64,000 nucleotides of DNA from Octopus vulgaris (Eukaryota): the NCBI GenBank assembly GCA_951406725.2, contig OX597834.1, forward strand, positions 4,464,001 to 4,528,000, read 5' to 3'. The notes under the pieces were generated by a model, which was given only the letters and a program-made list of their open reading frames with translations, did not search any database and was not told the origin of the DNA. This document shows, in pieces, positions 1,776 to 60,176 of the stretch. How positions within the stretch are numbered: the first letter of the stretch is position 1; each line of letters opens with the position of its first letter. The position numbers and the translations under genes were made by a program.

Positions 1776-2325
1776 CATGTGTATATGTGTGTACCTCCGC
1801 CATTTGATAACCAGTGTTGGTCTGTTTATGTTCCCTACTTGGTAAAAGAAACTGACCAGATCTGATGGCTTTTAAGGTCTGTATTGCGCCCCAAACGTTG
1901 GATTGGAAGTAGAAAAATTAAAACATTTGCATAGAATTACAAAGTTATTTCCCTTGAAAACGCTTTCTGTTGAATATATTATTTAATTAAAGATTATATA
2001 TTTTAAAAAAATTCGATTTTCCTCCAATGGAGGAGCAAATAACTGAATCATAAGAAGCAAAGACAGGAAATAACTTCGTTTAGGAAGTGACAATCAGTTT
2101 GTAGCGATGTTAGCCGACAAGAACTGAGTTGGAAACGGGAAGTTTGTTGTTGCTGTTACCATTAACAAAAAGTATGTGTGTGTGTGTGTTTGTATGCTGA
2201 TATTACTTTATGCGGAAATGTTTATTACATGCATATATATCTGTATTTAAGAAAAAATGCGTGTATATCCAATAAAACCAATATTCTCAGTGGGAAAAAA
2301 AAAACGAATTTATAATTTGTAGATA

Positions 2326-2649
2326 TTACGGTGATGTACTTGCATAGCAAGTGACTTGATCTGAGATCGTGTGCTGGAACAAACACAATTGCAGCGTGGA
2401 AGGTGTTTATAAGCCATTTAAAAACACACAAAAACCGTTAGATTTAATTTAATAAAATATTTTCGTCGCTTTGAGACCCCGACCTGTTCACTGACAAAGT
2501 TCTGTGTTGCATTTTGTCAGTGAACAGGTCGAGGTCTCAAAGCGGCGAAAATATTTTGCTAAATTAAATTTAAATGTTGAAGTGAATCTAACGGTTTTTG
2601 TGTGTTTTCAAATGGCTTATAAACCTTATAAACCTTCCACGCTGCAATT
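2326..2649 (-). mobile_element. Fold-back PLE-like insert with two opposed hammerhead-like motifs
   Basis: Inverted arms 2387-2498 / 2513-2649 plus a one-sided 60-bp tail; 12-bp TSD aatttgtagata (2314-2325 / 2650-2661); homologous to 21834-22177. Confidence 0.75.
2513..2563 (+). ncRNA. Type I hammerhead-like motif, G3-C8 variant, 3' arm of stem I mutated
   Basis: TTTGTCA-GTGAACA-G-GTCG..CGGC-GAAA-ATATTT-TGCTAAA. Confidence 0.55.
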
Positions 2650-2884
2650 AATTTGTAGATAATTATAAATAATAAACAGTCTAAGGGAAATAACCCAGTT
2701 TTTAGACTGCGTAAAAAGTTATCTCCCTTGCGTACAAGCAATTTTAAAAAAAAGTTAGTCAAACGTGGATAAAGCAGTTGACATGGCATTTTGTAAGCCC
2801 TTTTGAAGTGAGAACCATGCTATTGTCGATGCTTATTTACTGTTTAACGTTCTCAGTAAATATAAATCTGGAGAAATTAGACGT

Positions 2885-3744: not shown

Positions 3745-4735
3745 TGAGAGCTGCACTTATAGAGATGCCTCAGTAGCCCAGTTTGCAAAAGTGTTTTTCA
3801 GTTTGGGCCAATGATCAACTACAACTTGACACTGTTAGAGGAAATATCAAAATACCTCACCTTTCAAAAGATTGTGGAGCAGTAATCAAAACATCTCAAG
3901 AAATGTCCTAGCCTCTTACTGAATTATGGAAATCACGAGTGGGTTTCTGAACGAAGCCTCTTAGCTTCCAACCATGATATTGTCCAGAATACAAATGCAC
4001 ACACACACCAGTCAACATTTGTCAACCAAATACAGAGGGTATTATCCATATTCAGCAGCTGATGTTAACGAACCTACCAAACTATCCATCAGAGTTTATC
4101 AATTCACGTCAGCCCCCCGGGGTCTCTTCTTACAGCCAGCACGTGAAAGTAGGACCCCCTTATGTCACGACGACGAGGGTTCCGGTTGATCCGAATCAAC
4201 GGAACAGCCTGCTCGTGAAATTAACGTGTAAGTGGCTGAGCACTCCACAGACACGTGCACCCTTAACGTAGTTCTCGGGGATATTCAGCGTGACACAGAG
4301 AGTGACAAGGCCGGCCCTTTGAAATACAGGTACAACAGAAACAGGAAGTAAGAGCGAGAGAAAGTTGTGGTGAAAGAGTACAGCAGGGATCACCACCACC
4401 ATCCCCTGCCGGAGCCTCAAGGAGCTTTAGGTGTTTTCGCTCAATAAACACTCACAACGCCCGGTCTGGGAATCGAAACCGCGATCCTATGACCGCGAGT
4501 CCGCTGCCCTAACCACTGGGCCATTGCGCCTCCACCCCCCTTATGTGTTGGATGCACCAATATGTACCAATATTTTCTAATGGCGCAACAGCTGCTGTAA
4601 AAACGTTTATGCTCCATTATGAATGGTTTCGAAAATTGAGATGTTTCCCCGTCACATCTTCTCTTCATCCCATCAGATATTCTATCTCAGTTCCTTTCAA
4701 GTGCCACAGTCTTTATGACTATCAACAAGTTTCGT
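3745..4735 (+). pseudogene. Decayed Helitron PIF1-like helicase fragment, interrupted by a SINE
   Basis: Frameshifted peptides NHEWVSERSLLASNHD, NYPSEFINSRQPPG..VKVGPP, FSNGAT, LFIPSD, FMTINK follow the order of Helitron helicase motifs (W..ERAILAP, YP.EFLNSL.P.G.P...LKVG.P, LCNGT, AMTINKSQG). Confidence 0.7.
4166..4533 (-). mobile_element. SINE family A, near full length, young
   Basis: tRNA head with A/B boxes (tggcccagtggtt...ggtttcgattccc); TSD cccccttatgt; near-identical to 48818-49197 and 62752-63100. Confidence 0.9.
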
Positions 4736-4758
4736 TCTCTTTCTTTATGATCATCATA

Positions 4759-5168
4759 GGCGTAGGAGTGGCTGTGTGGTAAGTAGCTTGCTTACGAACC
4801 ACATGGTTCCGGGTTCAGTCCCACTGCGTGGCACCTTGGGCAAGTGTCTTCTGCTATAGCCTCGGGCCGACCAAAGCCTTTTGAGTGGATTTGGTAGACG
4901 GAAACTGAAAGAAGCCCGTCGTATATATGTATATATATATGTATGTGTATGTGTATATGTTTGTGTGTCTGTGCCCCCCCAACATCGCTTGACAACCGAT
5001 GCTAGTGTGTTTACGTCCCCGTAACTTAGCGGTTCGGCAAAAGAGACCGATAGAATAAGTACTAGGCTTACAAAGAATAAGTCCCGAGATCGATTTGCTC
5101 GACTAGAGGCGGTGCTCCAGCATGGCCACAGTCAAATGACTGAAACAAGTAAAAGAGTAAAAAGAGTA
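4759..5168 (+). mobile_element. SINE family B, full length (CORE/V-like block, internal TA/TG microsatellite)
   Basis: tRNA-like head, caccttgggcaagtgtctt block, (gtaaaaga)n tail; many copies in window. Confidence 0.9.
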
Positions 5169-6035
5169 TATCTTAACAAGGATATTATTTTACAGTTGTT
5201 ATGATTGAACTTCTCATGTGGTCGACACCATGTGGCATGATCACGTGTTTCGTTTTATCGGAATATAGAACCACAGAGAAAGAAATGTCGACCACCCTTG
5301 AGCTCTTTGTTGAATAAAACATTTCTGATAGAATTGTTTTCGTTTTGTGCATTGCGTATCAGTTGGAGATTGCAAGAAAATATGTAAAGCAAAATACATG
5401 GTGTGTTCTTAAATCACAAAATTAGCATTCCCAATAAATACAGCGTCGTATGATATAAAAATATGGGAAAATTCAACTTTAGGCATTTATCTACGTTGCA
5501 ATGAGAATATATGTAAATAAAATTATATCCAAAAAGCATCACCCCACCCACAAAAAAAACAAAACAAAAACACTTGCAATAAATTAAATAATTTAATGTC
5601 AAGAGAGAAATATCTCGAAGCACACACACAAAGCTATAAATAATAGCATGTAAATATTGCACAGAAAGAAAAACCGAAGGAAGCTCGCTGAACACGAACC
5701 CGCATCTGCTGTAGATATAACAGGAGGCCTAGCACTGTGTCAAAGAAACCCTTCGGATTGGCTGCATCCATTTTAGAAACTTTATTCTTATCAGCGAGAA
5801 TTATATGTAGCTGACGTCATAAGATTTTGTAAACTTTCGAGAGAACGGGAGTAATTCTTATTTGGAATATCCCGAATCACACACAGGAGATGTGGGTTCG
5901 AGTCCTACGAGCATCCTTCGTTTTTTTCTATCCAAAAGAGTTGTTCAACCCAGCCTCGAGATATTCTCCAAAAATAAATGATTTAAATTCAACGCACATA
6001 TTTTTACATATCTGGCCCCCAGAAGAAACACCGGT

Positions 6036-6285: not shown

Positions 6286-6295
6286 ATATAAATGA

Positions 6296-6512
6296 TTTAT
6301 TTAAAAGCAGCAGAAATTTAACAAAAGCTGTTACTCGGACTTTCACGTTCCCCCTTTTTTTTAAACAAAACTGTCCGACGAACGGGAACGTGAAACTCCG
6401 AGTAACAGCTTTTGTTAAATTTCTGCTGCTTTTAAATAAAACACATTACTCTACCTCTGGTATTTGAGTACTCTTTTTTCCACCTTGTTTCACATTTATG
6501 TGTTTACTACAG
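6296..6512 (+). mobile_element. Fold-back PLE-like insert between (TA)n tracts
   Basis: Inverted repeat 6296-6440 plus about 70-bp one-sided tail. Confidence 0.7.
6364..6416 (+). ncRNA. Type I hammerhead-like motif, U4C variant
   Basis: AACAAAACTGT-CCGACGA-ACG GGAA CGT-GAAA-CTCCGAGT-A-ACAG(C)TTTTGTT; all three stems pair. Confidence 0.65.
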
Positions 6513-13492: not shown

Positions 13493-14823
13493 CGAGGTGG
13501 GACCCAAAAGAAACCCGAATTTTGGAATTTGCTATTTTATTCACTTAATTTTTTACATGGTTACACTTTTATCGCCTTCAAAGTATTCTCCATTCGAAGC
13601 AATGCATCGGTCCAGACGCGTTTTCCATTGTTCGAAGCCGTGCTGGAACTCTTGCAAAGTGATACCTTTTAACTCCTCCGTCGCTTGTTTTCCTCGCCTC
13701 TTCCACATCTGCAATTTTCGTATCACCAGCTTTCGTCACCAGTGATGACCTTCGAAAAAAGGTCTGGATCATCTTCCAACTGTTCTTTCAGTTTACCACA
13801 CGCATTCAATCGTGACTGCTTTTGATCTTCCGTCAGTAAGCGACGAACAAATTTTACTGCAACTCTTTTCATTCGCAATTCCTCGTTCAAAATTCGTTGG
13901 CAGAAGTTCCAGGACATACCAGTCATATCAACAAGTTCATCAATTGTTCAGTGACGGTCCTCCAAGATTACTCTTTTACTCTTTTACTCTTTTACTTGTT
14001 TCAGTGATTTGACTGCGGCCATGCTGGAGCACCGCCTTTAATCGAGCAACTCGACCCCGGCACTTATTCTTTGTAAGCCCAGTACTTATTCTATCGGTCT
14101 GTTATGCCGAACCGCTAAGTGACGGGGACATAAACACACCAGCATCGGTTGTCAAACAATGCTAGGGGGACAAACACGGAAACACAAACATACACACGCA
14201 TATACATATATATATACATATATACGACGGGCTTCTTTCAGTTTCCGTCTACCAAATCCACTCACAAGGCTTTGGTCGGCCCGAGGCCATAGTAGAAGAC
14301 ACTTGCCCAAGGTGCCACGCAGTGGGACTGAACCTGGAACCATGTGGTTGGTAAACAGGCTACTTACCACACAGCCACTCCTGCGCCTATTAGTTCATGA
14401 ATTTTCATAATGTTTTCATTCGTTCGGGAGGTCGACGGTCATCCTGGACAAGGTTGGTCTTCAAGCGACAACTGACCATTCCTAAAGTGTGGGAACCACC
14501 CGCAAACTTGCGTTTGCTCATGGCAGTCGTCCTTGTAAGCTTTTTGAAGCGTGACAGCTGTTTCGGTTGTCGTTTCTCCCGGTAGAAAACGGAATTTCAC
14601 GGAAGTACGCTGTTCCTTTGTTTTCATCCACCGCAAAAATCGACGAACAGAGGAGAAGCACCGCAAAACAAAGACGCCACCCACAGTATGGCCTCAATAG
14701 ATAATGCCGGTCGGTATACTGATGCCGGAGGGTCGCATCAAGTGGCTTCTAGCGGTGGAAGTGCGAACTACAACGGGCTTGTCCCACAAAAAACGTTTCC
14801 GGTTACTTTTGGGTACCCCCTCG
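13493..14823 (-). mobile_element. Internally deleted mariner transposon with both TIRs, interrupted by a SINE
   Basis: TIRs cgaggtgggacccaaaagaaacccgaa / reverse complement of ttccggttacttttgggtacccctcg, followed by TA; peptides EQRTSVKF..LQKAY..WF..FRNG..LED.P..GRP and KFVRRLLTEDQK..VITGDESW. Confidence 0.9.
13969..14387 (-). mobile_element. SINE family B, full length, inserted in the mariner ORF
   Basis: Reverse complement of 4759-5168; short atta duplication at the junctions. Confidence 0.9.
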
Positions 14824-15139
14824 TATACTAATAGCTAAGCATTAGGATATGCATATTTGCAAACAATTTATAAAATGGTACTGGACAATGAAGGAGCAAA
14901 TGTCCCATCGCCGTGACTCGAACCTTGTATCAATTCCTTGCCAGGTGACATTACCAAGTCCCGTCTTCAGTTTTTAAATTAGCAATGACACACGATTGCT
15001 TAATCTGCTAAAAATAGCAGCCACATCTTAAAGAATGAAAGACATTAAGCAATGAAGTCTTTGTCAGTCCCAGCTGTAATTTCAAGAATAACAACACAAC
15101 ATAAACAGCCGTTGTAAATAATATCGATATTTGTTCTAA

Positions 15140-15272
15140 AACAATTGCAGCCTGGAAGCCATTTAAGAAACACACAAAAACCGTTAGATTCACTTCAACA
15201 TTTAAATTTAATTTGCCAAAATGTTTTCCTCGCTTTGAGACACCGACCTGTTCACTGACAAAATTCCGTGCT
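15140..15272 (-). mobile_element. Single arm of the G3-C8 hammerhead family (motif 15212-15262)
   Basis: Minus strand TTTGTCA-GTGAACA-G-GTCG..CGAG-GAAA-ACATTT-TGGCAAA plus the shared downstream sequence. Confidence 0.7.
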
Positions 15273-15989
15273 GTTCTAAAATGATTTAAGATTTTATTCC
15301 CTGAAATGAAATATTCTTGGTAGATATTCAAACAGTCGTTAGAGCTATTTGTGTTTTACTTAGCTTCGATGGAGTCAGAAGCATGCCTGGTCTCATAGCT
15401 TATATTGATACAGGAGATTGAGATTAGCCAGTTGGATTTATGTGTTGGACCACAATTAATGGAAGCAATAAGATAAAACCGCTTAATATGATATGTAGGG
15501 GAAGTCCATGTTAGCCATTCAACAGAGGGGTTAGTTTTTATTTATATGTCGAGTAGATATTCAGGTATCACGACGTGTCTTCGATTATCTTCGATTAAAT
15601 ATACAGCTGTGAGAATAGCTACAAGGAGGATGTAACACAACTCGACCCCAAACACTGAATTTTGGCGCTCAGTTTGACTGTATTTATAGGCTGTGTTTAC
15701 AGAAAATTGTAGCTGGGCCACCGAACTACCACGTGAACATCAACCGTTCAGTGGATAAAATCTCGATTGCGCACATTTTCTAATTATGACTGAATTGCAG
15801 GTTGAATTTCGTATGTGACAAAACGCGGGATCGAATCCAGTGTTATAATATATTGTGTCCCATTCGACACTAGTTCACTCTCATTTTGTTGATTGTGTAA
15901 CCATTGGGATCTCGAATATACATTCCAGTTATATGTAGGGGTTTCAATTCCAAATTTAAATTGGACGACGTATATGCAGCATTTCTTTG

Positions 15990-16258
15990 AAGTATACTCC
16001 TCCAGTACTCTTCTGACCTCGTCAACAGAATTCATATTTTTTTCGTCGAAATGATTTTGAAGACTGCAGAATAAATGATAACCAGATGAAGCAATGTCCG
16101 GCGATTATGGTGGGTGGGGCATCGTTTCCCATTCCAACTGCTCCAGCCTTTGGAATGTCATCCTTGCTGTATGTGGCCGAGCATTATCCTGATGGAAGAA
16201 CACCTTTCGCCTTGAAACCAAAGATGGTCATCTTTCTTCTAGCGCTGATTTGAACGAC
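15990..16258 (-). mobile_element. Mariner transposase C-terminal fragment
   Basis: Minus-strand FHQDNARPHTA and a decayed HPPYSPDIA..YHLF region. Confidence 0.8.
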
Positions 16259-19324: not shown

Positions 19325-19800
19325 TAAGATCTGATCATCAAATCTAAGTAGAGATTTCAAACTTAAAATCTTCAAAGCCACAGTCGAAACAATTCTACTA
19401 TATGGCTCAGAAACCTGGACGTTATCAAAGAAGCTTGAGAGGCGGTTGGATGGAACTTACACTCGCCTCCTTATGAGAGCTCAAAATCTCTCGTGGAAGC
19501 GTCATCCAACCAAAGTACAAATATATGGGAAACTACCACCTGTATCATCTCTTGTGAAAGGTAGAAGAGTCCAGTTTGCTGGACATTGTTGTAGAGCTGA
19601 AAACGAAGTAATTTCTACTCTTCTCCTCTGGAAGCCATCTGCTCGTGATACCAGAGGGCGCACACTCTCCTACCCTGATGTAATCTCCAGGAATACAGGC
19701 ATCCAGCAACAGGACCTCCGTAATGCTATGATGGACCGTGAGGTCTGGCGTAACATAGTAAATTCCATTGTTTCGACCACGATCGAACAACGAATGATGA
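19325..19800 (+). mobile_element. RTE-clade LINE, 3' fragment
   Basis: KIFKATVETILLYGSETWTL..RLDGTYTRLL..FAGHC..LLLWKP..M.DREVWR; short atgatga tail. Confidence 0.9.
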
Positions 19801-20678
19801 ATGAATTTTTTAAAAACGGCTTTCCATTTTTCTATGTTTTAAATATTGCGAAATATCATTCAGCAAAATTCATAATTTTTTTCATAAACTCACTTCGCTT
19901 CATTGTTGCTATCACTTTTCAGAAATGACCCTTATCTTAATCCTACTTAGAAACCTGACCCTAAACCCAGTAATAGATTCTTGTGAAACAGTTACTGAAG
20001 TTACGCTTGTTCTGAGAATTCCTTTGCCTTCTCACATTCTGACAAAGTACTGACTACGAAATATACTGGAGCCAAGTTAACAGGAAGTTTTTGCGACGGC
20101 GACTGAACGAAATCTCAAATAGGAGATTGATTAAAAATCAAGACAAAACAAAAACAGTAACGAACATTTGTACCGGTCAAATTATGGAATCACATTTTAG
20201 ACAATTTTCCTTTTTAAAAGGTTCTTGGAATTCACTGGAATATTAATAGCTGTGATGGGGGCCAATTAAAAAAAAAATGAATTCCGAATTTAGAAATTTC
20301 CCGATAAACAAATGGCCATGCTCCTCCATACCATGTTAGGAATCCCGGCTCGGGTCGATAAAATAAAGGTTAAATAGTAGTGTTGATTTAATCGACTTCT
20401 TTTCCTAAATTTCTGGCGTTGTGTATTTATCAGACACTACCTGAACCCTGGACCCTACAGATCTATTGTCACTGCAAGTTTTACAAATATTTTCTGCTGA
20501 TTTTGCTTTAAAAGGTTATGTTCAAGTCTTTTTCTCGATGACTTTATTGAAAAACTGAATCGCATCAAAAACGAGCGGTTTTCCTGCTACGAAACAAAGC
20601 CTTAAGTGTGCGCTTTTATAAAGGAAAACTTCACATTATTTTGTTTTAAATAAGGTCGAAAGAAAACCTGTTTCTTTA

Positions 20679-21399: not shown

Positions 21400-21833
21400 C
21401 AGAATACGTGGCGTGAGGAAAAGAGAATATGGAACGGAAGTGACCCTCTGTCTCATTGAAACGGATGTACAGAGGACGGAGAAATAGACACGCGCTGCCG
21501 ATGAGGACGGTTGAGCAAAAGAACATTTGGTGGTTCAGCCAGGAAAAAAAAATCAAAATGATCTTTCAAGGGCAAAGAAAACCCATCAGCCACAAAAATT
21601 GCTTCGATCGGGAAGAGTGTTATGATTTTGAGTAAGGTACTTCGTCTTACGCATTTCTTCTGTAGGCACAGTCGGAATGTATGTATGTATGTATGTATGT
21701 ATGTATGTATGTATGTATGTATGTATGTATGTATGTATGTATGTATGTATGTATGTATGTATGTATGTATGTATGTATGTATGTATGTATGGATATATGC
21801 ATGTATGTGTGTGTATGTAAATAATATATATAT

Positions 21834-22175
21834 AATTGCAGCGTGGAAGGTGTTTGTAAGCCATTTAAGAAACACACAAAAGCCGTTCGATTCACTTCAA
21901 CATTTAAGTTTAAATTTGTCAAAATATTTTCGTCGCTAAAATCCGCGACCTGTTCACTGACAAAAATCCATGCTGCATCAGAGAAAGTAACAGTGAACAG
22001 GTCGCGGTCTTATAGCGACGAAAATATTTTGACAAATTTAAACTTAAATGTTGAAGTGAATCGAACGGCTTTTGTGTGTTTCTTAAATGGCTTACAAACA
22101 CCTTCCACGCTGCAATTGTTTTCGTTTCAGCACACGATCTCAGATCAAATCACTTGCTATGCAAGTACATCTCCG

Positions 22176-22177
<2 letters not shown>
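21834..22177 (+). mobile_element. Fold-back PLE-like insert between TA-rich microsatellites
   Basis: Near-perfect inverted arms 21834-21959 / 21991-22117 plus 60-bp tail; homologous to 2326-2649. Confidence 0.8.
21915..21964 (-). ncRNA. Best-preserved G3-C8 type I hammerhead-like motif
   Basis: Minus strand TTTGTCA-GTGAACA-G-GTCGC GGATTTTA GCGAC-GAA-AATATT-T-TGACAAA: 7-bp stem I, 5-bp stem II, palindromic stem III. Confidence 0.7.
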
Positions 22178-22245
<68 letters not shown>

Positions 22246-23742: not shown

Positions 23743-24166
23743 ATCTATCTATCCGCTCAGTCGAAGTCGACTCTTGGTTACTCGATGGATCAGTGTCCTC
23801 CAGTCAGTTCTATCCTGGACCGCTTCTTTCAGATTGGCCATGTCCATTCCGGTATCACTCTTGATGGTGTCAAGCCAGCGGGTTCTTGGTCGGCCTCTTC
23901 CTCTCTTGCCACTGACCATTCCGAGCATGATGTCCTTCTCTAGGGATTTTCTCAGCATAATATGACCGAAATATGCCAATCTATGCCTGGTGATCCTAGC
24001 TTCTAGCGACAGTTTCGGCTTGATCTGCTTAAGAACTTCTCCATTGGTGAGCCTCGCTGTCCATGGAATCAGTAAAAGTCTTCTCCAACACCAAAGCTCG
24101 AATGCATTAATTCTCTTCTGGTCAGCTTTGTTTAGTGTCCAGGTCTCGCATCCATAGGTTGCTATT
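23743..24166 (-). mobile_element. RTE/BovB-like LINE, 3' fragment
   Basis: YGCETWTL..RINAFELWCWRRLL.IPWTAR..YFGHIM..SLEKDIMLG..GKRGRGRPRTRWLD..VTKSRLRLSG*, (TAGA)n tail. Confidence 0.92.
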
Positions 24167-25009
24167 GTAGGCAGATTGAAATGGAAACTAAAGGTAAAAT
24201 TTCATCTCGTGTATCTCAGAAGTTTTTCCACACGCATAAAGGACTATGTTCAAACTCATTTAGGAAGATGTCTTTATACAATAAGGATGGTATTTTAGAA
24301 TATTTAAGTTTATTTTGTGTATGCAAGAGATATAGTTTATATACCTTAGCGACAAGGAAATTCAAAGTTTTACCAAATGGAAAAATTTGAGTTTCCCCAG
24401 GAAAGTTGGATAATCAACAGTGCTCACCACAGGACGAAACTGTATCTGAAGAACATAAGATCTATGCTCGGTGTGAATATTTTTCAACCACTTTTATCCT
24501 TTCATTTCTATTTATTTTCTTTTCCCCGACAAGATCGCAACCCTCCTCTCTGCAACTGACGTTCCATTTTGTAGCAAAGATGTGATTACTTAAAATATTT
24601 TACAGCTAAAGTGATGATCAGTTCATGATGTGTGTCAGTGTCACCTGCGAAATGTTAAATGGAGAATTTTCTTTGCGAAAAAATAATAGGAACAGTATTT
24701 GACTTTGAATAGAACCAAATCTATTGAAGTAGCTAAAATTCTGATTTTTCGATTTTCTCTGTCGTTGGGAAATGTGTGAACGTACATAATATACTTTAAT
24801 TTTTGTATTCTATGCGAGTGAAAGAGAGTTCGTTGATGCGACTGTAGACGGTTACCTTTTTAAAACTGCCATTGTTAAAGTTGCAAGACTGATACGAATG
24901 AATAAGTGAAGTGCAATACTAAGAACCAATAACACATTGAAATAATATCAGATATTTCACAGTGTCATACTGACGAAAGAGGGAGAGAGAGAGAGAGAGA
25001 GAGAGAGGG

Positions 25010-26155: not shown

Positions 26156-26326
26156 CAGGAAAAAAGCGTAAAACAGGAAAAAAGCGAAACGTTATATTAA
26201 TCTTTATAGAATTATATTAATCTTTATATTAATCTTTTATGCATTTAGAAGCCAGAGACACCATAGACTCAGAAAATATCTTGATATTTAGTAATATATC
26301 CACAGAGAAATAGAGTATAAAAAAAC

Positions 26327-26770
26327 TGAAGTTTCAGTAAAATTGTATTATATACATATTAGAGGGAAACCACTATGTGGACACCCTTATGCGGACGTCC
26401 TAGTATGCAGTCCTGCAAATTAAATTCATTTGGACGGTCACACCGAAGATCTACAGACATCTTACGTAAGTAAAATTACGTAATATGTTGATAGTGAAAC
26501 ATGTATGGGAATAATCCATATTTTTATTGCTTTTCTTTTGTTTTGCTCGATTACGTTTTGGTTGTTTTGCTAAGTTTTTCTTGAGAACATTTCTTAGTGG
26601 TAAGACCACAGCGGATCTATTTCTAGCATAAGGGTGTTCACATAGTGGTTTCCCTCTAATATGTATATAATACAATTTTACTGAACCTTCATTTTTTAAT
26701 ATGCTAGATCACTGGTGTGAAATCGATGTTAATTAAATTAATATCTATTTTCTTCCCCTCATTTTAAATT
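26327..26770 (+). mobile_element. Inverted-repeat insert (arms 26327-26392 / 26626-26691) with tail; related to 59150-59459
   Basis: Shared ttttcttgagaaca..ttctt.gtggtaa...tctat.tctagcata...tagtggt..cctctaa and atgctag..cactgg tail. Confidence 0.6.
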
Positions 26771-26799
26771 TAAATTTAAATTAATAAAAAATTGTAAAA

Positions 26800-27135
26800 A
26801 ATTGGAAGAGTCAAGAAAACGGATAGGCTTGTTTCACATCAGCTGAACAAGATTCAAAAGAACAGACGTCTTGAAGTGTGCTCCTTATTGCTTTCTCGAC
26901 TGGAAAAAGACCATTTTTGCATCAAATCATTACTTGTGATGAGAAATGGATGCTCCTTGACAACAACAGAACAGAACAGTGATTATATGCAGTCACCTAA
27001 AGACTACTCGAACTCACCATTGCACACTAAAACGTCAGTGGCCACTGTATGGTGGTCTGCGAACGAAGTTGTTCATTATTCATTTTTGCATCAAGGGAAA
27101 ATAGTAACAGTAACATCGTATTACCAGGAAACCTA
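26800..27135 (+). mobile_element. Mariner transposase fragment
   Basis: HQLNKIQKNRRLEVCSLLL, IITCDEKW, ATVWWS..VVHYSFL..G..VT..YY. Confidence 0.8.
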
Positions 27136-27139
27136 ATAT

Positions 27140-30713: not shown

Positions 30714-31202
30714 ATGCACACACACACACATACATTATTTACTAACGGATATTGGAAAGTTCCTGGCTTTAACGGTGTCGCGAAAGGCCCGGCTGGAGTC
30801 TCAAACTTCCGATTTATTTTACTGGGTTTCGAAAAACTGAAGGACCACTGCAATAAATGTGTGAATCTGAAAGGGGAATATGGTCAATAAAATGATAAGG
30901 AACTGATCCTGCGGCATTTTCTTTAACCCAAACCCAGGAACTTTACAGCAATCTCTCGTGTATATATTAGGCCGCTGACATTCGTTGACGCTGCATGGAA
31001 GACGACGTAACCAAAGAACAAAAAAAAAGAAAGAAATGCACTCAATACCAGCCACCTCCAAAAGGTTGGGGTGGCGGGCGGCGCCACGTTGGAAAATGGT
31101 TCCTCCTGATGACGCCCTTAGCTACTGGATCCTTTAAAGGAGTTATTGAGTTAGCGAACCACAAAACGTGGTTGGAATTCCTATATATATATATATATAT
31201 AT

Positions 31203-31471
31203 AGCAATAATAATTCTCTAAACGAGGTATATACAGTAATTGCTCCATAACATAAGGGACGTTAGCCATCCGAATATGGCTAGGGACAGGGCAGGGCGGT
31301 GGGGGTGTTACTGATGCATTTAGCCCCAGGCGATCATCAACGTCACCAGGAGGGCGGCGTCAGCCCTCCTGGTGACGTTGATGATCGCCTGGGGCTAAAT
31401 GCATCAGTACCACCCCCACCGCCCTGCTCTGTCCCTAGCCATATTCGGATGGCTAACGTCCCTTATGTTAT
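31203..31471. mobile_element. GC-rich near-perfect fold-back (31247-31471) between (TA)n tracts
   Basis: About 110-bp arms, 7-nt loop ggcgtca; arm resembles 16375-16452, which lies downstream of the 16531-16575 motif. Confidence 0.7.
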
Positions 31472-37519: not shown

Positions 37520-39550
37520 AATAACTTCACGGTGTGTCTTACAAATCTTGTGGTATTTGTTAGATTTTAGAAAATACTTACCTAAGGCAACAATTACTTA
37601 GTAATCCCGGATGATATTCGTGATCCGAAGATTGGATTAGGCCACAAAACATTAAATATTTTATACTTTTTGTTCGGTCTGTGACTACTAATATAAATTG
37701 TGGAAGGGTCATTGCCCAAGGAGTTACGTTCTACCTAATATTTAGACTAATACTGTTTTCACTTCTAATTTTATTTAATGTGTCAATTTTCACTCTTAAT
37801 TAGTCTGACATGACCACCTCCCTCTATTGCGTGCTTACAATTTTATCTATTAAGGTAAGGCTTAGTTCTATTACTATTGTGGCTCTGTAGATTAATTAGA
37901 TTATTATTAAGCAAATATTTCCTTTTCTCTGTATAAGCAACCCTGGCCAATGCTGCACTGCAATAGTGTCCATGTGTGTTATTTAACTTCTTTCCTTAGC
38001 CAAAAGTTTGGGTATTCGATTAGATATGTTTCTTACAAGTCCGTTCATAATAGAGGGTGGGTGATTAGATTTTACATTTATATATCTCAGGTTTTCGTTT
38101 GGCTTATGGTGTAGTTCGAATGATCTTGCATCCAAATTAAATGTTAGATCGAGAAAATTTACTTCACGGTAATTATTTTCTGTATTAACGGATTGTCCAA
38201 AATTTTTGAAGAATTTAAATAGTCGTTTCTTGTATCTCTCCATTTCTACCTTATTAAACCTATAAGTTATGAAGAATGTGTCGACCCTATACAGGTTATT
38301 CCCCATCCGTGAAAACCAGGACCAGATCTGGAATAGGATATATATTCTGACAAGCTCAGTGACTTTCGCTGAGTCACTAGATCCCATTGTAATATCGAAA
38401 GAGTCTATTCTATCTGATCTCGTCCCTAGTTTATTATCAAAATCTATCAGAATACCATGTGCAGCTAGTATAATATCTAACTCTGACCTAGAAAAATCAG
38501 AATTGCGCATGGCAAAAATTAAAGCCTTGTTCAGAAGAACCAGACTAACAGTAGAATAATAATTTGATATGTCGAGTTGTGTAAATTTGCTACTTTTAAT
38601 CCAATTCAGTCTTTTGAACCATCCAACAGACCATAGAGAGTGTTTAATCTTCGATCTAAAATTTGGAAGTATTCTGTCAATAATACTTTTACTAATCCTA
38701 CCAATATCCAATTTAGAGGGGCACACTTGTCTATCTGTAGGGTTATTATCAAAGTTAGTATTATACAAAGTTTAGTTAATTCTAGCTTTTTTTGAGGGGG
38801 CATATGGCTCAGTTCTATCTTCTATTCCGTGTTGTGTAAATATTTCAAAGCTCTTATTTACACCAGTTAATGCATCTCTAGTTCTTTCATGATTAGTAAA
38901 AAATAGTGTTATTTTAACAATGTATGACTTACCAGTTTTATCCGCCGGTACTAATATGCCTAAGGCGTCGAGCTGGCAGAATCGTTAGCACGCCAGGAGA
39001 AATGCTTAGCGGTATTTCGTCTGTCGCTGCGTTCTGAGTTCAAATTCCGCTGAGGTCGACTTTGCCTTTCATCCTTTCGGGGTCGATTAAATAAGTACCA
39101 GTTACGCACTGAGGTTGATATAATCAACTTAATCCGTTTGTCTGTCCTTGTTTGTCCTGTCTGTGTTTAGCCCCTTGTGGGTAGGAAAGAAATAGGTATT
39201 TCGTCTGCCGCTACGTTCTGAGTTCAAATTCCGTGGAGGTCGACTTTGCCTTTCATCCTTTCGGGGTCGATTAAATAAGTTCCAATCGACTTAACCCATT
39301 TGTCTGTCCTTGTTTGTCCCCTCTGTGTTTAGCTCCTTGTGGGTAGTAAAGAAATAGGTACTAATATGCCTGATGCTCTTTGGAATTCCTCCAGTGGTTT
39401 TCTCAATTTTTACTGGCGTTGTTGTCTTCTTTTTGTTGGTAGTTGATGTCTTCTTGGATTTTATAATTTTTATGATTTTATACAATTCCTCCTTAAAAGT
39501 TCTAGGCGTTGATATGTTGGTAGGATTTTCAGGTAGTTAAATTGTCTCTT
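37520..39550 (-). mobile_element. Decayed Penelope-like retroelement RT, interrupted by a SINE
   Basis: LVPADKTG, DIGRISKSIID, QLDISNYYS, FDITMGSSDSAKVTELV, LYRVD (decayed YRDD), VNFLDLTFNL, KPNENLRYINVKSNHPPSI; outer limits approximate. Confidence 0.85.
38962..39356 (+). mobile_element. SINE family C dimer
   Basis: 15-bp TSD ggtactaatatgcct (38947-38961 / 39357-39371) flanks the whole dimer. Confidence 0.92.
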
Positions 39551-44721: not shown

Positions 44722-44930
44722 TTTCAAATTTTGGTACAGGACCAACAATTTTGGGGAAAGGGGTAAGTCGATTACATCAACCCCCAATGCTCAACTGGTC
44801 CTTATTTTATCAATTTTGAAAGGATGAAAAGCAAGTCGACCTCGACGGCATTTCAACTCTGTACGTAAAGACGGACGAAATGCCGCTAAGCATTTTGTCC
44901 GGCATGCTAAAGATTCTTCCGGCTCACCGT
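44722..44930 (-). mobile_element. SINE family C, diverged
   Basis: Reverse-complement match to family. Confidence 0.75.
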
Positions 44931-44977
44931 TTTGTTACCTTGTAGCAATTAGTTCAGCACCTGCTTTGGGTATATCC

Positions 44978-45627
44978 GATTTCTTTACTACCCACAAGGG
45001 GCTAAACACAGAGGGGACGAACAAGGACAGACAAACGGATTAAGTCGATTATATCGACCCCAGTGCGTAACTGGTACTTATTTAATCGACCCCGAAAGGA
45101 TGAAAAGGCAAAGTCGACCTCGGCGGAATTTGAACTCAGAACGTAACAGCAGACGAAATACCGCTAAGCATTTCACCCGGTGCGCTAACGCTTCTGCCAC
45201 TACTTAATACCTATTTCTTTACTACTCACAAGGGGCTAAACACAGAGGGGACGAACAAGGACAGACAAACGGATTAAGTCGATTATATCGACCCCAGTGC
45301 ATAACTGGTACTTATTTAATCGACCCGGAAAGGATGATAAAACAAAGTCGACCTCGGCGGAATTTGAACTCAGAACGTAGCGGCAGACGAAATACCTATT
45401 TCTTTACTACCCACAAGGGGCTAAACACAGAGAGGACGAACAAGGACAGACAAACGGATTAAGTCGATTATATCGACCCCAGTGCGTAACTGGTACTTAT
45501 TTAATCGATCCCGGAAGGATGATAAGCAAAGTCGACCTCGGCGGAATTTGAACTCAGAACGTAGTGGCAGACGAAATACCGCTAATAATTTCGCTCGGCG
45601 TGCTAACGATTCTGCCAGCTCGCCGCC
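44978..45627 (-). mobile_element. SINE family C trimer
   Basis: Three tandem bodies; 13-bp TSD tttgggtatatcc (44965-44977 / 45628-45640) flanks the whole array. Confidence 0.92.
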
Positions 45628-46093
45628 TTTGGGTATATCCTGGAAGAAGCAAGGGTCTAACATGATTTATAATCGATGTGTGTAATTCTATACAGAGATA
45701 TACTGAAACTGTATGTCGTTAGAGATTTATATTAGGTTAAACAATAAACTTAATTTTACATGTCTCATTCCGTTTAAGCTTTTGACTATTACTTATTACA
45801 TACTAATCTGCTAGATAGTGTGTAGTTTTTAACTTTAACCACAATGGAATTTAGAGGTGATGATTAACTTTAAAATCACGAGCTGATCGTTGTGATATTT
45901 ATAATTATTATCGGAATTGAGTGGCACTATAAATCCTCTTAAAAATCGGATAAATGTATTTTTTAAGTACTTAAGCTTATCATAGTTTCGGTGTATGTTA
46001 TAACTACTATAGTTTAGTTCACAGCATTTAAAAAAAACCCATAATTACCATAATTAACAAATGTCTTATTCTTATTATCCAAATGTATATCTT

Positions 46094-46505: not shown

Positions 46506-47156
46506 TATATTTTAACTAAAGTGAACGTCTGAAGCATACGTATGTTCTAATTTCACTTGCCTCTTGTTAATGTCTTTTGCCTCGTTGTGTCGTTGTATGT
46601 GCTTTAAAATGTTTTTTCCTATTTTCGTACATACCCTATATAGTTACCGACTCCCACCCAGCCACGTTTATTCCAGCTCACCCGCTTATATGAATTTAAG
46701 CAAATGTCCAACCCACCTGGTTATTCCAACCTCGCCTATTATTTGGGTAGATAAGAAGATAAGAATAATTTGAAAAATTACTGACTTTCATATATTTAGT
46801 GAATGAACTAGAATATGTAAAAAAATAGACAAATGAAAGAAAAGGTTAAGAAAGAATAATGCGAAAAGGAATAATACTTAAAATAGAATAAAATGGAAGA
46901 ATAACTTAATGGCTATCATTATCTAACTTCCTCAACAGGAAGTCATAAAACTGGAAAAAGATCTTTAAAAACAGGAAAAGAAATTATTGAATTTAGAATA
47001 TCCCACATAAAATCTGACACGGAAAGATTATATCTACGGGACTTTTGTCACTGTTATAAAATATTCACTGAAGAGCTAAAAAATACCCGGTATTCAAAAT
47101 CCTTAAAAGCATGAAGAAAACAAAACAATAAAGTCCCAAAGAATTTTTTGTTTTTT

Positions 47157-47555
47157 CTCATTTACTCTCATTTACTCATTTACTTGTTTCAGTCATTTGA
47201 CTGCGGCCATGCTGGAGCACCGCCTTTAGTCGAGCAACTCGACCCCGGGACTTATTCTTTTTGTAAGCCCAGTACTTATTCTATCGGTCTCTTTTTGCCG
47301 AACCGCTAAGCTACGGGGACGTAAACACACCAGCATCGGTTGTCAAGCAATGCTAGGGGAACAAATACAGACACATACACATATATATACATATATACGA
47401 CAGGCTTCTTTCAGTTTCCGTCTACCAAATCCACTCACAAGGCATTGGTCGGCCCGGGGCTATAGCAGAAGACACTTGCCCAAGATGCCACGCAGTGGGA
47501 CTGAACCCGGAACCATGTGGTTGGTTAGCAAGCTACTTACCACACAGCCACTCCT
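47157..47555 (-). mobile_element. SINE family B, near full length
   Basis: Reverse complement of 4759-5168. Confidence 0.9.
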
Positions 47556-48242
47556 GATTTAGCACTGAAGTAGCAAAATATTGTAGGGACTCACCAATAC
47601 GCATTGCGAATGAATAAAACCTAATATGTACTTGGAATTACAAGAAGTCCCTATATAACGAATTGCCGAGAAAACCCCATTGATAAATAAATAATTTGTA
47701 ATATTAGCTGTGACCGAGGAGACTGAAATTTGATTACGGCACAGAAACTACAAAAGTAGAATGCAAACAGAAAAACATTAAATTACCTGCAGACCAATTG
47801 GAGGTCGAGAAGAAGCATTTTACCAAATCGTGTCTAGTTGCATAGTCTTGAGTAAGAAAGGCGATGCTCGTAGGTATGAGAAAGTTCAAAAATTATACTA
47901 ATATTATAAAATACTTAAAGAAAAGAATGGATATAAATGGAGGCCAGAAAAATTTCAATATTTTGTAGTCAAATGACGCTTGTTTCTCTTAAGTTGTCAC
48001 GTGACCAATGTGACCTTCCGTAAATTATTTAGCCTTTTACGGATGAACGTAGCGATAAGCTGCTTTTCTCAGTGAGGCCAATTAACAAACAATCACGTGA
48101 TCATTATTGTGTTACTTTTTGTTGCAGAAAATTATCTTCACCTCATAGGGTCTATTGCCATTAACAGCCGACGAGAATGTATCGTAGCTCTTAGCTACGA
48201 CATTTGAAACTCCGAGTACTGTTATGGCAATTTATTATTCTA

Positions 48243-48404: not shown

Positions 48405-48572
48405 TGAATCTTATTCATCGAGGCAGAGGGTAACGTAACGAAAATCAATCAATATCCGATTATTCATAGACGCGCGTTTATTTAAAACCTGATTCCGAAA
48501 CGCGCGTCTATGGATAATCGGATATTGATTGATTTTCGTTACGTTACCCTCTGCCTCGATGAATAAGATTCA
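48405..48572. repeat. Near-perfect fold-back whose arms begin with (G)AAACGCGCGTC
   Basis: About 75-bp arms, about 18-nt spacer. Confidence 0.85.
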
Positions 48573-48817: not shown

Positions 48818-49197
48818 AAGCACTCCGTCGGTTACGACGACGAGGGTTCCGGTTGATCCGAATCAACGGAACAGCCTGCTCGTGAAATTAACGTGTAAGT
48901 GGCTGAGCACTCCACAGACACGTGTACCCTTAACGTAGTTCTCGGGGATATTCAGCGTGACACAGAGAGTGACAAGGCCGGCCCTTTGAAATACAGGTAC
49001 AACAGAAACAGGAAGTAAGAGTGAGAGAAAGTTGTGGTGAAAGAGTACAGCAGGGATCACCACCACCCCCTGCAGGAGCCTCGTGGAGCTTTAGGTGTTT
49101 TCGCTCAATAAACACTCACAACGCCCGGTCTGGGAATCGAAACCGCGATCCTATGACCGCGAGTCCGCTGCCCTAACCACTGGGCCATTGCGCCTCC
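48818..49197 (-). mobile_element. SINE family A, full length
   Basis: TSD cccatgctt; near-identical to 4166-4533. Confidence 0.92.
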
Positions 49198-50211
49198 ATC
49201 CCATGCTTATACGTACTGAATTTCTAACGATCGCTGTCTATATGGATACTCTCCCAGTGAAACACTAATTTCTAATGAATTTAGTTTGGACCGACTTTAC
49301 CAATTTACACATATAATTATGAATCTGCTATTCCGATCATTTAGCACGCAACAACGAACATTTTATTTGTTTTCAAATGACAAAGCGACAACGTTCAGGG
49401 TTATGTCAAATCTCACAGACAGTATGATGAATCCTAATCAACCGGATGCTGTTGCCAAGGACAACTAAGAGCGGATGTGCTTCTCAACCGAAGATTCAAT
49501 TCCAATTGAACACAATGTATCTGTAAAGGAAATGAATAAATTCGTCTAAAATGAAGATCTGGAAGGGAAGATGTCTCTAAAAGAACTGGATGGATTGTAA
49601 AATCTAGGTATAAAAGTGTGTGTGTGGGATTCAAATAGAAACAGCCCTTCTAATAATAAACGTCTTGGCAATGGTTACAAATATGCCAAACATCGGGATT
49701 TACACCGAAATACTTGGAGAAAATAGCATAACTCATAGAAACACAAACAATAGAGGTCTTTGCTCATCTGCGCTCTGAGACACAAAATAAAATAAGATGA
49801 ATGGGGAAAAATTACAATCCAGCTTGGCTAAACGATGAAAATTGCTGGAAAGTCTGTTGGAAAGAAGACCAATTTCCTGTATTGACGAAATAGAAACTTC
49901 TGTAAACAAGGTTTTGGCTCAATAACACCGGGATTTCCTGTTTTTTAAAGATTTTTATGGAGAACAACGAAAGTTAAAATTTATTCATTGCATCAAAAAT
50001 GTACGTGTGTATTTGTGTGTATGTATGTGTATTACGTGTATGTGTATTATGTGTATGTATGTGTGTGTGTGTGTGTGCGTGTTAGTGTGTGTGCATGTAA
50101 GAGTTTGTGCCTGTATCAATTTAAGCAGTTACGGAGACTAGGAGAAATTTCCCTTGGAATATTTGTTTCTCACATATCCATCCGTCCGTCCGTCCGTCCA
50201 TCCGTCCGTCC

Positions 50212-51307: not shown

Positions 51308-52092
<785 letters not shown>

Positions 52093-52094
<2 letters not shown>

Positions 52095-53052
52095 GAGAGC
52101 AAATAATGCAGATGTTGACAAAGCCCTGACCCATCAATGGCTAATGGCCTCTGGCTTAAAATCTGAAACAGAGGGGTTTATCATAGCAGCTCAAGATCAA
52201 TGCCTACCAACAAGAAACTACCAGGCCAACATATTAAAGATCAGAAGCAGTCCAACGTGTCGTGTATGCCAGCAACAAAATGAAACCATTGACCATGTGG
52301 TCTCCAAGTGCAGTCTTCTAGCGCCTACAGCGTATCTCAACAGACACGATAGAGCTGCACAATATATTCACTGGGTAATCTGCAAAAACCTGGATTTGCC
52401 CCATGAAAAAAACTGGTGGGAACACAAACCACCCCCAGTGCTTGAAAATGACCACATCTCACTCCTCTGGAACTTTACCATTCAAACTGACAGAAAGATA
52501 GATGCAAATAGGCAGACATCATATTGAAAGACTTCAAACAAAGAACATGCCTCTTCATTGATATGACTGTCCCAATCGATATAAACGTATCTGTCAGGAC
52601 CTACCAAAAACTGAGCAAATATAAAGATCTTGAAATAGAAATCAGCAAAATGTGGAAGCTGAAGACTAAAACAATACCTGTTGTCATAGGTGCCCTGGGA
52701 ATGATAGCAAAAGGGGCTGATAGCTACCTAACTCAGATACCAGGAAACCCAAAAATGGCAGAAATTCAAAAGATAGTGCTCATGGGAACTGCTCATATCC
52801 TACGAAAAATACTTTCTATGTAATCTCAAGGTTTAAAACAGACAATTTTCGGTTTAAAAAAAAAAACTTCTTTTAAATAAAAAAAAAATTTTTTTTTAGA
52901 CATTCATTAGTACAACACCAAAAACTCCCCCCACCCAAATATATGGCACACTAGGCATAACAACAACATGAACTTCCAACCTGTTGTCTCTTGAGGTCTC
53001 TGGGTGAGACTTGGAGCCAACTTGTACAAATATAAAGCAAAAGTCAAACATA

Positions 53053-59145: not shown

Positions 59146-59149
59146 CATA

Positions 59150-59454: not shown

Positions 59455-59459
<5 letters not shown>
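59150..59459 (-). mobile_element. Fold-back (59241-59459) with one-sided tail between (TA)n tracts
   Basis: About 105-bp arms, short loop; homologous to 26575-26770. Confidence 0.75.

Positions 59460-59513
<54 letters not shown>

Positions 59514-59804: not shown

Positions 59805-59901
<97 letters not shown>

Positions 59902-60122: not shown

Positions 60123-60176
<54 letters not shown>

What the first reader, a model, noticed from the sequence alone, without database searches (positions are those of the whole stretch)
2314..2661. Whole fold-back flanked by a 12-bp TSD, with the same short-arm boundary as the copy at 21834
Seen: aatttgtagata is duplicated around 2326-2649. Here and at 21834-22177 the short arm stops at cacgctgcaatt while the long arm continues 60 bp to ccgtaa; the central junctions differ between copies. 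Inference: each fold-back formed during its own integration, using a fixed pLTR boundary and a variable truncation near the ribozyme. That fits RT self-priming or template switching rather than a cut-and-paste MITE.
Basis: partly seen in the sequence, partly recalled or inferred. Interest (0 to 1): 0.75.

Follow-up and report, generated by a model that had tools for sequence, protein, structure and literature searches.

The report
Penelope retrotransposon end, inserted as hairpin
This is a short scrap of a Penelope-like jumping gene in an octopus-type genome, pasted in twice back to back at one spot; that layout is already described for these elements, but this family carries an unusual version of the hammerhead ribozyme core.

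Summary
2326-2649 is a fold-back with a 12-13 bp target duplication. Its short arm and that of the copy at 21834 stop at the same base, and both long arms run 61 bp further. It is not a MITE. Each arm is the terminal repeat (pLTR) of a Penelope-like element. It holds a minimal hammerhead motif and the first 10 codons of an ORF, and the tail holds codons 11-30. That peptide matches the N-terminus of an Octopus predicted protein at 29 of 30 residues; an overlapping Octopus protein runs on into Penelope-type motifs. A third copy (15142-15271) is a single arm with its own 10-bp duplication. The two arms of a copy resemble each other (3% apart) more than the arms of the other copy (10%), which favours formation at insertion, though later arm conversion is not excluded. 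Two corrections: the 5' ends cluster upstream of the ribozyme, not at its cut site, and the second copy's loop fits two separately primed cDNAs better than self-priming. Inverted pLTR, one-sided tail and short TSD are published Penelope anatomy. Less ordinary: a G3:C8-swapped hammerhead core in 5 of 5 arms, and a 61-bp tail.

The parts
2314..2325 (+). Target-site duplication, left copy (12 bp; 13 bp from 2313)
2326..2386 (-). 61-bp one-sided tail = codons 11-30 and part of 31 of the element's ORF
2328..2417 (-). First 30 codons of the PLE ORF (ATG at 2417, preceded by a stop codon); 26 of 30 residues identical to the N-terminus of P0007
2387..2512 (-). Long (tail-bearing) pLTR arm; has an 18-bp deletion relative to the other arms; its 5' end carries the loop sequence
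2448..2498 (-). Decayed minimal type I hammerhead motif in the long arm (G3 at 2491, G12 at 2464, position 17 at 2455)
2511..2512 (.). Head-to-head junction; 2 nt shared by both arms
   Evidence: read
2511..2649 (+). Short pLTR arm, inverted; has a 7-bp tandem duplication; ends 31 nt into the ORF
2513..2563 (+). Decayed hammerhead motif in the short arm (G3 at 2520, position 17 at 2556)
2650..2661 (+). Target-site duplication, right copy
21822..21834 (+). Second copy: left target duplication (10-13 bp, boundary ambiguous in (TA)n)
21834..21978 (-). Second copy: short arm; here it is this arm that carries the loop sequence
21915..21964 (-). Best-preserved hammerhead motif: stem I 7 bp, core GUGAACA plus one extra G, stem II 5 bp, GAAA, palindromic AUAU, UU
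21979..21990 (.). Second copy: 12 unassigned nt at the junction (filler, further upstream element sequence, or a spliced first exon)
   Evidence: origin not determined
21991..22117 (+). Second copy: long arm, starting 2 nt before core position 3; ATG at 22087
22118..22178 (+). Second copy: 61-bp tail; ORF codons 1-30 match P0007 at 29 of 30 residues
22176..22188 (+). Second copy: right target duplication, running into (TA)n
15132..15141 (+). Third copy: left 10-bp target duplication
15142..15271 (-). Third copy: a single pLTR arm with no inverted partner and essentially no tail (solo pLTR insertion)
15272..15281 (+). Third copy: right 10-bp target duplication

Best explanation
A pLTR-only insertion of an endonuclease-type Penelope-like retrotransposon (PLE), made by target-primed reverse transcription at both strands of one staggered cut. 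Shown in the sequence: each arm is pLTR (hammerhead motif + 5' UTR + codons 1-10), the tail is codons 11-30, the arms are joined 5' to 5', and a 12-13 bp duplication frames the whole. Inferred: the PLE protein nicks AT-rich DNA on both strands about 13 nt apart; one 3' end primes on the element RNA at a distal internal site (ORF nt ~92, giving the tail), the other at a proximal site (ORF nt ~31); each cDNA runs about 130-210 nt to, or nearly to, the 5' end of a transcript that starts just upstream of the ribozyme; the two cDNA ends are joined by 2-nt microhomology (this copy) or through filler (second copy). The monomer at 15142 is the same reaction with one priming. The product cannot code for protein. 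My odds: PLE pLTR identity about 0.93; fold-back formed at insertion about 0.75; by two separately primed cDNAs about 0.55.
For: Peptide from ATG 22087 hits P0006 (Octopus bimaculoides, A0A0L8I3W9) residues 1-26 at E 2.2e-5, the only hit among 1.84 billion proteins, and P0007 (O. sinensis) at 29 of 30. P0007 overlaps P0008 (O. vulgaris) at 78% over 151 aa. P0008 has PKF at 145, DK at 293 and YGLxKxHK at 364, the order and spacing of the GxKF/Y, DK and RT1 motifs in PMC8557442 Figs S4/S7 (compared by eye). 29 of its 30 Atlas hits are clusters with DUF8422/PF28514 (16-41% of members in the three shown), a domain also listed on the PLE RT protein P0005. Hammerhead descriptor: best of 2 hits in the window, score 13, against 0.03 hits per shuffled window at score 11 or more; the free fold gives stems I and II, z -3.4. 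Arms within copies differ at 7 of 233 sites, between copies at 46 of 462; 9 of 9 informative columns group by copy. The monomer has its own TSD. In PMC11167929 a purified PLE protein cleaves and extends both strands, is predicted to be a dimer, starts reverse transcription at two internal sites that delimit the tail, prefers AT-rich DNA and uses uncleaved RNA. A. vaga Pen2a has 12 codons in its pLTR, 22 with the tail, an inverted pLTR and a 9-bp TSD (PMC3846280).
Against: Only two fold-backs and one monomer were available; no eukaryotic genome collection and no empty allele could be searched. The link to a PLE RT rests on motif inspection and a chain of two proteins. Direct tests were weak or blank: Pfam found nothing on P0008, BLAST to five PLE RT proteins gave E 0.14 at best and their profile E 0.0035 in a two-sequence database, the second Atlas search gave no usable hit, and neither the RT core nor GIY-YIG lies in the fragments found. 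P0007 is a chimeric gene model that ends in a methyltransferase domain. The hammerhead descriptor was written after I saw the motif, Rfam gave no hammerhead hit at these coordinates, the core is non-canonical, and only 1 of 5 arms passes the descriptor. The second copy's arms are identical over the first 105 bp with all differences in one 5-nt patch, and the tails look somewhat more diverged from P0007 than the arm-to-arm distances predict (4 and 1 residues); both hint at some arm conversion, on very small counts. The tail is 61 bp, against 30-40 bp in print.
Confidence: 0.58

Rival explanations
1. Same PLE, fold-back made at insertion, but by self-priming or template switching: one cDNA is primed at the tail end, folds back at its 3' end and copies itself (the first reader's version; also proposed in PMC3846280, there on an antisense template).
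For: The copy at 2326 fits: the extra 5' sequence is on the tail-bearing arm and the arms share 2 nt at the junction. Arms group by copy. Published support from palindromes at inverted junctions.
Against: In the copy at 21834 the short arm holds 19 nt of 5' sequence absent from the long arm, so the long-arm cDNA could not template it, and a short-arm first strand could not template the tail (inference). It gives no reason why the short arm should stop at the base where the independently primed monomer also ends. It needs a later loop inversion or an antisense RNA.
Confidence: 0.2
2. A non-autonomous palindromic PLE derivative formed once or a few times and is copied whole; the arms of each copy are later homogenised and the loop flipped by recombination or template switching between the inverted repeats (mechanism recalled from the quasi-palindrome literature, no call).
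For: Explains the shared outer ends, the narrow spread of inner ends, by-copy clustering and the opposite loop orientation together. 105 bp of perfect arm identity in the second copy.
Against: The first copy keeps 5 substitutions, a 7-bp duplication and an 18-bp deletion between its arms, so conversion is far from complete. About 55-85% of the between-copy distance would have to be erased. The junctions differ by more than an inversion (12 extra nt; different breakpoints). The monomer shows that the unit moves as one arm. At least four other families in the window show the same one-sided build.
Confidence: 0.19
3. A MITE or foldback DNA transposon (for example Mutator-like, long TIRs and a 9-12 bp TSD; recalled) moved by cut and paste.
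For: 324 bp, long inverted arms, flanking 12-bp duplication.
Against: The termini are not inverted repeats of each other (61 bp on one side only); the TSD length varies; the centre is not shared; a one-arm copy has its own TSD; the arms encode a PLE-type ORF start and a hammerhead motif.
Confidence: 0.02
4. An assembly or amplification artefact (chimeric fold-back read).
For: Fold-back chimeras are a known artefact (recalled); the window holds about ten local fold-backs.
Against: The arms differ by substitutions and indels, the insert is framed by a TSD, and the same outer boundaries recur 19.5 kb away in the opposite orientation.
Confidence: 0.01

Closest known systems
Adineta vaga Pen2a_Av / Pen2_Av (Penelope/Poseidon group; PMC3846280, passages and part 3 of 5 read)
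   Same: Inverted 5'-shortened pLTR head to head with a direct pLTR; optional tail on one end; first codons in the pLTR (12; 22 with tail) against 10 and 30 here; TSD 8-10 bp framing the whole; solo pLTRs.
   Different: There the inverted pLTR sits on a full ORF-bearing copy; here two arms of about 130-145 bp are the whole insert. Tail 61 against 31 bp; TSD up to 13 bp.
Poseidon of Anolis carolinensis, PAc (PMC11167929, parts 1-2 of 4 read)
   Same: Hammerhead in the pLTR; two internal RT start sites inside the ORF start that delimit the tail; both strands cut and extended; AT-rich target; ribozyme cleavage not needed.
   Different: In PAc the ORF starts within the ribozyme and RT starts 111-118 nt into the ORF; here the ATG is about 58 nt after the cut site and the ends are at ORF nt ~31 and ~92. 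PAc has the canonical C3:G8 core; C3G/G8C was made as a mutant and partly rescued cleavage.
Minimal PLE hammerheads (min-HHR; PMC4209133, parts 1-2 of 4 read, 2 of 3 supplement files searched)
   Same: Type I topology, an extra base between positions 9 and 10.1, G10.1-C11.1, short palindromic helix III; pairs of motifs 100-700 bp apart on opposite strands were already noted there.
   Different: The reported core covariation is U3:A8; here it is G3:C8 in 5 of 5 arms. Cleavage is untested.
Naiad and Hydra PLE clades, including Octopus families (PMC8557442; passages, sections 11 and 15, supplement parts 2 and 57)
   Same: Inverted 5'-truncated copies, one-sided tail, (TA)n insertion bias.
   Different: Naiads have an N-terminal endonuclease and lack canonical hammerheads; Hydra has DKT and lacks GxKF/Y. 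This family has a hammerhead motif, PKF and DKS. Its clade was not determined.
Non-LTR retrozymes (bioRxiv 10.64898/2026.07.22.740005, part 1 of 5 read)
   Same: Short, non-coding, type I hammerhead, derived from PLE pLTRs.
   Different: Retrozymes are head-to-tail tandems; these copies are a monomer and two head-to-head pairs.
L1 twin priming (recalled; no call)
   Same: Two target-strand primers give an inverted 5' segment inside one TSD.
   Different: In L1 the two primers copy different parts of one RNA; here both arms cover the same sequence, which needs two RNAs or reuse of one.

Membership tests
Penelope-like element (EN+, canonical) | pLTR contains the first codons of the element ORF | tested here: met
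   ATG at 22087/2417; 10 codons in the arm, 30 with the tail; 29 of 30 and 26 of 30 identical to the P0007 N-terminus
Penelope-like element (EN+, canonical) | N-terminal GxKF/Y, DK and RT1 motifs in the ORF | tested here: met
   P0008: PKF 145, DK 293, YGLxKxHK 364, compared by eye with Figs S4/S7 text; DUF8422 link. Statistical support weak
Penelope-like element (EN+, canonical) | Telomerase-like RT core (YxDD) fused to a GIY-YIG endonuclease | tested here: inconclusive
   The proteins found stop before the RT core; Pfam blank, PDB blank, model pLDDT 34.5; no such ORF for this family in the window
Penelope-like element (EN+, canonical) | Type I hammerhead motif in the pLTR | tested here: met
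   Descriptor hit and free fold for the arm at 21915-21964; core is G3:C8, not canonical; no Rfam hammerhead hit here
Penelope-like element (EN+, canonical) | Ribozyme self-cleaves (as a dimer or with protein help) | not testable with these tools
   Needs an in vitro assay
Penelope-like element (EN+, canonical) | Inverted 5'-truncated copy joined head to head | tested here: met
   2 of 3 insertions
Penelope-like element (EN+, canonical) | Tail at one end only (30-40 bp in print) | tested here: met
   Present on one arm in both fold-backs, absent from the monomer, but 61 bp long
Penelope-like element (EN+, canonical) | Short TSD of variable length at AT-rich or (TA)n sites | tested here: met
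   12-13, 10-13 and 10 bp
Naiad clade | GIY-YIG endonuclease at the N-terminus; no canonical hammerhead | tested here: not met
   No GIY-YIG match in P0006, P0007, P0008 or P0009; hammerhead-like motif present
Hydra clade | DKT and RWK motifs, GxKF/Y not conserved | tested here: inconclusive
   P0008 has RWR but DKS and PKF; only weak similarity to Hydra-type proteins P0001-P0005; no tree built
MITE / TIR DNA transposon | Inverted repeats at both termini | tested here: not met
   61 bp outside the repeat on one side; a one-arm copy exists
MITE / TIR DNA transposon | Fixed TSD length and a shared internal sequence | tested here: not met
   TSD 10-13 bp; centres differ
Non-LTR retrozyme | Head-to-tail tandem units, each with a type I hammerhead | tested here: not met
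   Five arms only: two inverted pairs and a monomer; tandems elsewhere in the genome unchecked

The most novel reading that the evidence does not exclude
This family encodes a working hammerhead with a natural G3:C8 core, the swap I found only as a laboratory mutant (PMC11167929, PMC3884650; natural covariation reported as U3:A8 in PMC3088659 and PMC4209133), and so invisible to standard ribozyme searches; and its pLTR-only hairpins are direct records of twin priming by a PLE dimer on the 5' end of the mRNA, so their inner ends map the transcription start and their outer ends map the two RT start sites. A bolder add-on (about 0.1): G3 is forced by a splice acceptor (pyrimidine run + CAG ending on G3), and the 12 unassigned nt in the second copy are a spliced first exon, which would mean its two arms came from two different RNA molecules.
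Probability: 0.25. Interest if true: 0.65.

Novelty: new member of a known kind. Interest (0 to 1): 0.4.

Why it matters
How PLEs make their inverted ends and tails is named as an open question in PMC8557442 and only partly answered in vitro (PMC11167929). Inserts of about 330 bp with both junctions, a clean TSD and a known ORF register are easy to collect by the hundred, and the side on which the extra 5' sequence lies separates twin priming from self-priming. Practically, such inserts look like MITEs or microRNA hairpins to automatic annotation (the best Rfam hit here is a plant miRNA model below threshold), and octopus-type genomes seem full of them. A natural G3:C8 hammerhead would widen the ribozyme consensus.

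Tried and rejected
The repeat finder over the whole window was swamped by microsatellites; replaced by BLAST. Rfam: no hit above gathering score; MIR6140 and mir-358 hits at 2428-2583 reflect the hairpin only. The 117-aa stop-free frame over the second copy (21825-22178) has no Pfam match and is not the real frame. The PLE RT remnant at 37992-38951 was examined as a possible partner and set aside: its relatives are Hydra-type and barely resemble P0008. Single-sequence AlphaFold of P0008 gave pLDDT 34.5 and was not used for a fold search. PDB sequence search: two chance hits at E 1.3. Bacterial and archaeal genome contigs: 0 matches to a 32-nt family motif, as expected for an animal repeat. Cluster members of P0003-P0005, P0007 and P0008 stayed unlisted. 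Six family motifs were not found in the PMC8557442 supplement, but long sequence runs there are cut or line-wrapped, so this is weak. Rejected: ribozyme cleavage as the source of the central junction (0 of 5 inner ends at the cut site); Helentron/DINE-type element (recalled as lacking a TSD and having short subterminal repeats). Searches for a natural G3:C8 core (passages; tables) found none. All 34 rows of the File S2 table have C3, but they were found with canonical descriptors; Lunse et al. 2017 on PLE hammerhead variants is not held, and file 1 of the PMC4209133 supplement was not searched, so absence from print is not established.

Full report
Observation. The 12-mer lies at 2314-2325 and 2650-2661 and nowhere else in the window; it extends to 13 bp if t2313/t2649 is counted. 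Among 3000 random pairs at the same spacing, 1 had a flanking repeat of 10 bp or more, with a smaller slop (3) than was used for the element (6). The insert folds at -177.6 kcal/mol, z -24. BLAST and a profile search find five arms of this family in the window: two here, two at 21834-22117 in the opposite orientation, and one at 15142-15271. Both short arms end at ...cacgctgcaatt, and both long arms go on for 61 bp to ccgtaa. The second copy has a 10-13 bp duplication in (TA)n. The single arm has a 10-bp duplication that occurs only twice in the window; 3 of 3000 random pairs reach 10 bp.

Setting. The window is 29-42% GC, rich in microsatellites, with no long ORF. All named protein matches of this family are from Octopus species, so the host is most likely an octopus; I did not try to identify the assembly.

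What an arm is. Read from the centre outwards, every arm has: up to 21 nt of leader, a minimal type I hammerhead motif, about 58 nt of spacer, a stop codon, an ATG and ten codons. The tail continues the frame to codon 30-31. The 30-residue peptide found one protein among 1.84 billion, P0006, at residues 1-26 (E 2.2e-5), an uncharacterised O. bimaculoides protein. P0007 (O. sinensis) matches the second copy at 29 of 30 and this copy at 26 of 30 residues; it is a chimeric model ending in a methyltransferase. P0007 overlaps P0008 (O. vulgaris) at 78% over 151 residues. P0008 carries PKF, RWR, DK and YGLxKxHK at 145, 170, 293 and 364, the order and spacing of the PLE GxKF/Y, DK and RT1 motifs in the supplement of PMC8557442 (by eye). 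Its Atlas neighbours carry DUF8422, also listed on a PLE RT protein. Against this, Pfam, PDB, a second Atlas search and direct comparison with five PLE RTs gave nothing or weak scores, and the RT core and endonuclease were not seen. I put PLE identity at about 0.93; the clade is open.

The ribozyme. A descriptor allowing any Watson-Crick pair at core positions 3 and 8, written after I had seen the motif, returns two hits in the window: the short arm of the second copy (score 13) and a canonical C3:G8 motif at 60353 (score 11); shuffles give 0.03 hits per window at 11 or more. The free fold of that arm gives stems I and II (z -3.4). The motif has the extra base after A9, the G10.1-C11.1 pair and the palindromic helix III that PMC4209133 lists for PLE hammerheads. 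The core reads GUGAACA in 5 of 5 arms: G3:C8 instead of C3:G8. The other four arms have damaged stems and fail the descriptor. Rfam has no hammerhead hit here. Activity is untested; the engineered C3G/G8C double mutant partly rescues PAc cleavage.

Were the fold-backs built at insertion? Arms of one copy differ at 5 of 107 and 2 of 126 sites; arms of different copies at 46 of 462 (Fisher p 0.0008, sites not independent). All 9 informative columns group arms by copy, none by long/short position. The copy with closer arms is also closer to P0007. This rules out a fixed palindrome decaying passively. It does not rule out conversion between arms after insertion: the second copy's arms are identical over 105 bp with the differences in one patch. 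The monomer shows that the mobile unit is one arm, and its 3' end lies 1-5 nt from the short-arm boundary, with up to 4 nt shared with the target.

The inner ends. Relative to core position 3 they fall at -21 (this copy, long arm), -9 (this copy, short arm), -21 or up to -33 (second copy, short arm), -2 (second copy, long arm) and -16 to -18 (monomer) (read). None is at the cut site, 35-36 nt downstream. Five ends within about 30 nt suggest a near-fixed 5' end of the template, most simply the transcription start (inference). In this copy the longer 5' end is on the tail arm, with 2 nt shared at the junction, which suits either model. In the second copy it is on the short arm, 19 nt beyond anything in the long arm, with 12 unassigned nt between. 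A cDNA primed at the tail cannot fold back and copy bases it never made, so this copy needs two separately primed cDNAs, an antisense template, or a later flip of the loop.

Mechanism. Best reading (0.58): a PLE endonuclease-RT nicks both strands about 13 nt apart; each 3' end primes on the element RNA, one at the distal and one at the proximal internal site; both cDNAs run to about the RNA 5' end and are joined head to head. This follows the in vitro behaviour of PAc: both strands cut and extended, predicted dimer, two internal start sites bounding the tail, uncleaved RNA as template (PMC11167929). Rivals: self-priming or template switching at insertion (0.20), a palindromic master with conversion and loop flipping (0.19), MITE (0.02), artefact (0.01). 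The parts and their order are shown; the nicking, priming and joining steps are inferred. In search 43 none of the four PLE-specific papers listed contains the term twin priming (20 of 30 papers listed); the L1 analogy is recalled.

Generality in the window. Other fold-backs with one-sided extensions between (TA)n tracts lie at 31247-31471 (44-47 bp), 59238-59462 (92 bp), 61367-61506 (about 74 bp) and 6293-6443 (about 70 bp, no exact TSD found). The 92-bp extension is element sequence, since it aligns with a relative at 26540-26790; in that pair the short arms end about 45 bp apart, so a fixed boundary is not universal. Three others tested (48405, 26303, 19276) gave no TSD above 6 bp.

Comparison with what is known. 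Inverted 5'-truncated pLTR, one-sided tail and (TA)n bias: PMC8557442. First codons in the pLTR and tail, 8-10 bp TSDs, solo pLTRs, and self-priming proposed from head-to-head palindromes: PMC3846280. Hammerhead pairs on opposite strands 100-700 bp apart: PMC4209133. Active Penelope families in O. vulgaris: PMC13282606 (passages). General description of pLTR oddities: PMC8969392 (passages). So the structure is known. What differs: no ORF body at all, a 61-bp tail, and the G3:C8 core, which my searches (passages 29, 32; tables 71, 78) found only as an engineered variant; one key paper was not held and one supplement file was not searched.

Verdict. Real, correctly seen, and largely explained by published Penelope biology: a new member of a known kind. 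Interest 0.40, above routine because the copies give a cheap test between twin priming and self-priming and because of the possible natural G3:C8 ribozyme.

Noticed in passing
window 15132-15281: Single-arm copy of the same family with its own 10-bp TSD and an 11-bp deletion near the 3' end; used as evidence in the report.
   Followed up: yes
window 21958-21964 and 21979-21990; 22118-22131: A pyrimidine run plus CAG ends exactly on hammerhead position 3, and a second acceptor-like stretch lies early in the tail. PMC4209133 reports an intron end at helix I in D. virilis Penelope. Splicing untested.
   Followed up: partly
window 2313-2325 and 21822-21834: Both 13-bp versions of the TSD begin and end with TA, as a symmetric cut would give; the 10-bp TSD of the monomer does not, and the second site is (TA)n, so this is weak.
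   Followed up: no
window 6293-6512: Fold-back of another family between (TA)n tracts with a ~70-bp one-sided extension; the long arm has a hammerhead motif whose stem I and stem III read like the Hydra-2_aMil / Hydra_aJap rows of File S2 in PMC8557442, with C at core position 4.
   Followed up: partly
window 59146-59462 and 26303-26790: Two fold-backs of one further family; the 92-bp extension of the first is homologous to the second, but their short arms end at different places.
   Followed up: partly
window 31201-31471; 61367-61580; 48405-48572: More fold-backs: 44-47 bp and ~74 bp one-sided extensions between (TA)n; the last two have GAAA + palindrome + UH half-hammerheads next to the centre.
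   Followed up: partly
window 59692-60613: Nested fold-back containing (TA)n tracts, followed by a canonical C3:G8 hammerhead at 60346-60418 (Rfam HH9, E 0.21; descriptor hit) and a partial repeat at 60541-60613.
   Followed up: no
window 37992-38951 (-): Decayed PLE reverse-transcriptase remnant; relatives have a C-terminal GIY-YIG-like region and it reads like Hydra-1_Obim in the PMC8557442 supplement (by eye). Not the partner of this family.
   Followed up: partly
window 26798-27136 (+); 52003-52823 (+); 19335-19928 (+); 23749-24201 (-); 15784-16104 (-): Other transposon remnants: mariner-type DDE fragment (PF01359) and zf-RVT fragment; the other three have no clear Pfam match and look like LINE or mariner tails from recall only.
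   Followed up: partly
window 4164-4538, 48831-49202, 62760-63101; 4756-5171, 13968-14390, 47154-47556; 38959-39364, 44764-45632: Three abundant dispersed repeat families of 200-400 bp, 75-98% alike, probably SINE-like; not examined.
   Followed up: no
P0007 (not in the window): An Octopus sinensis gene model that fuses this element's ORF start to a methyltransferase domain; misannotation or a real chimeric transcript.
   Followed up: no
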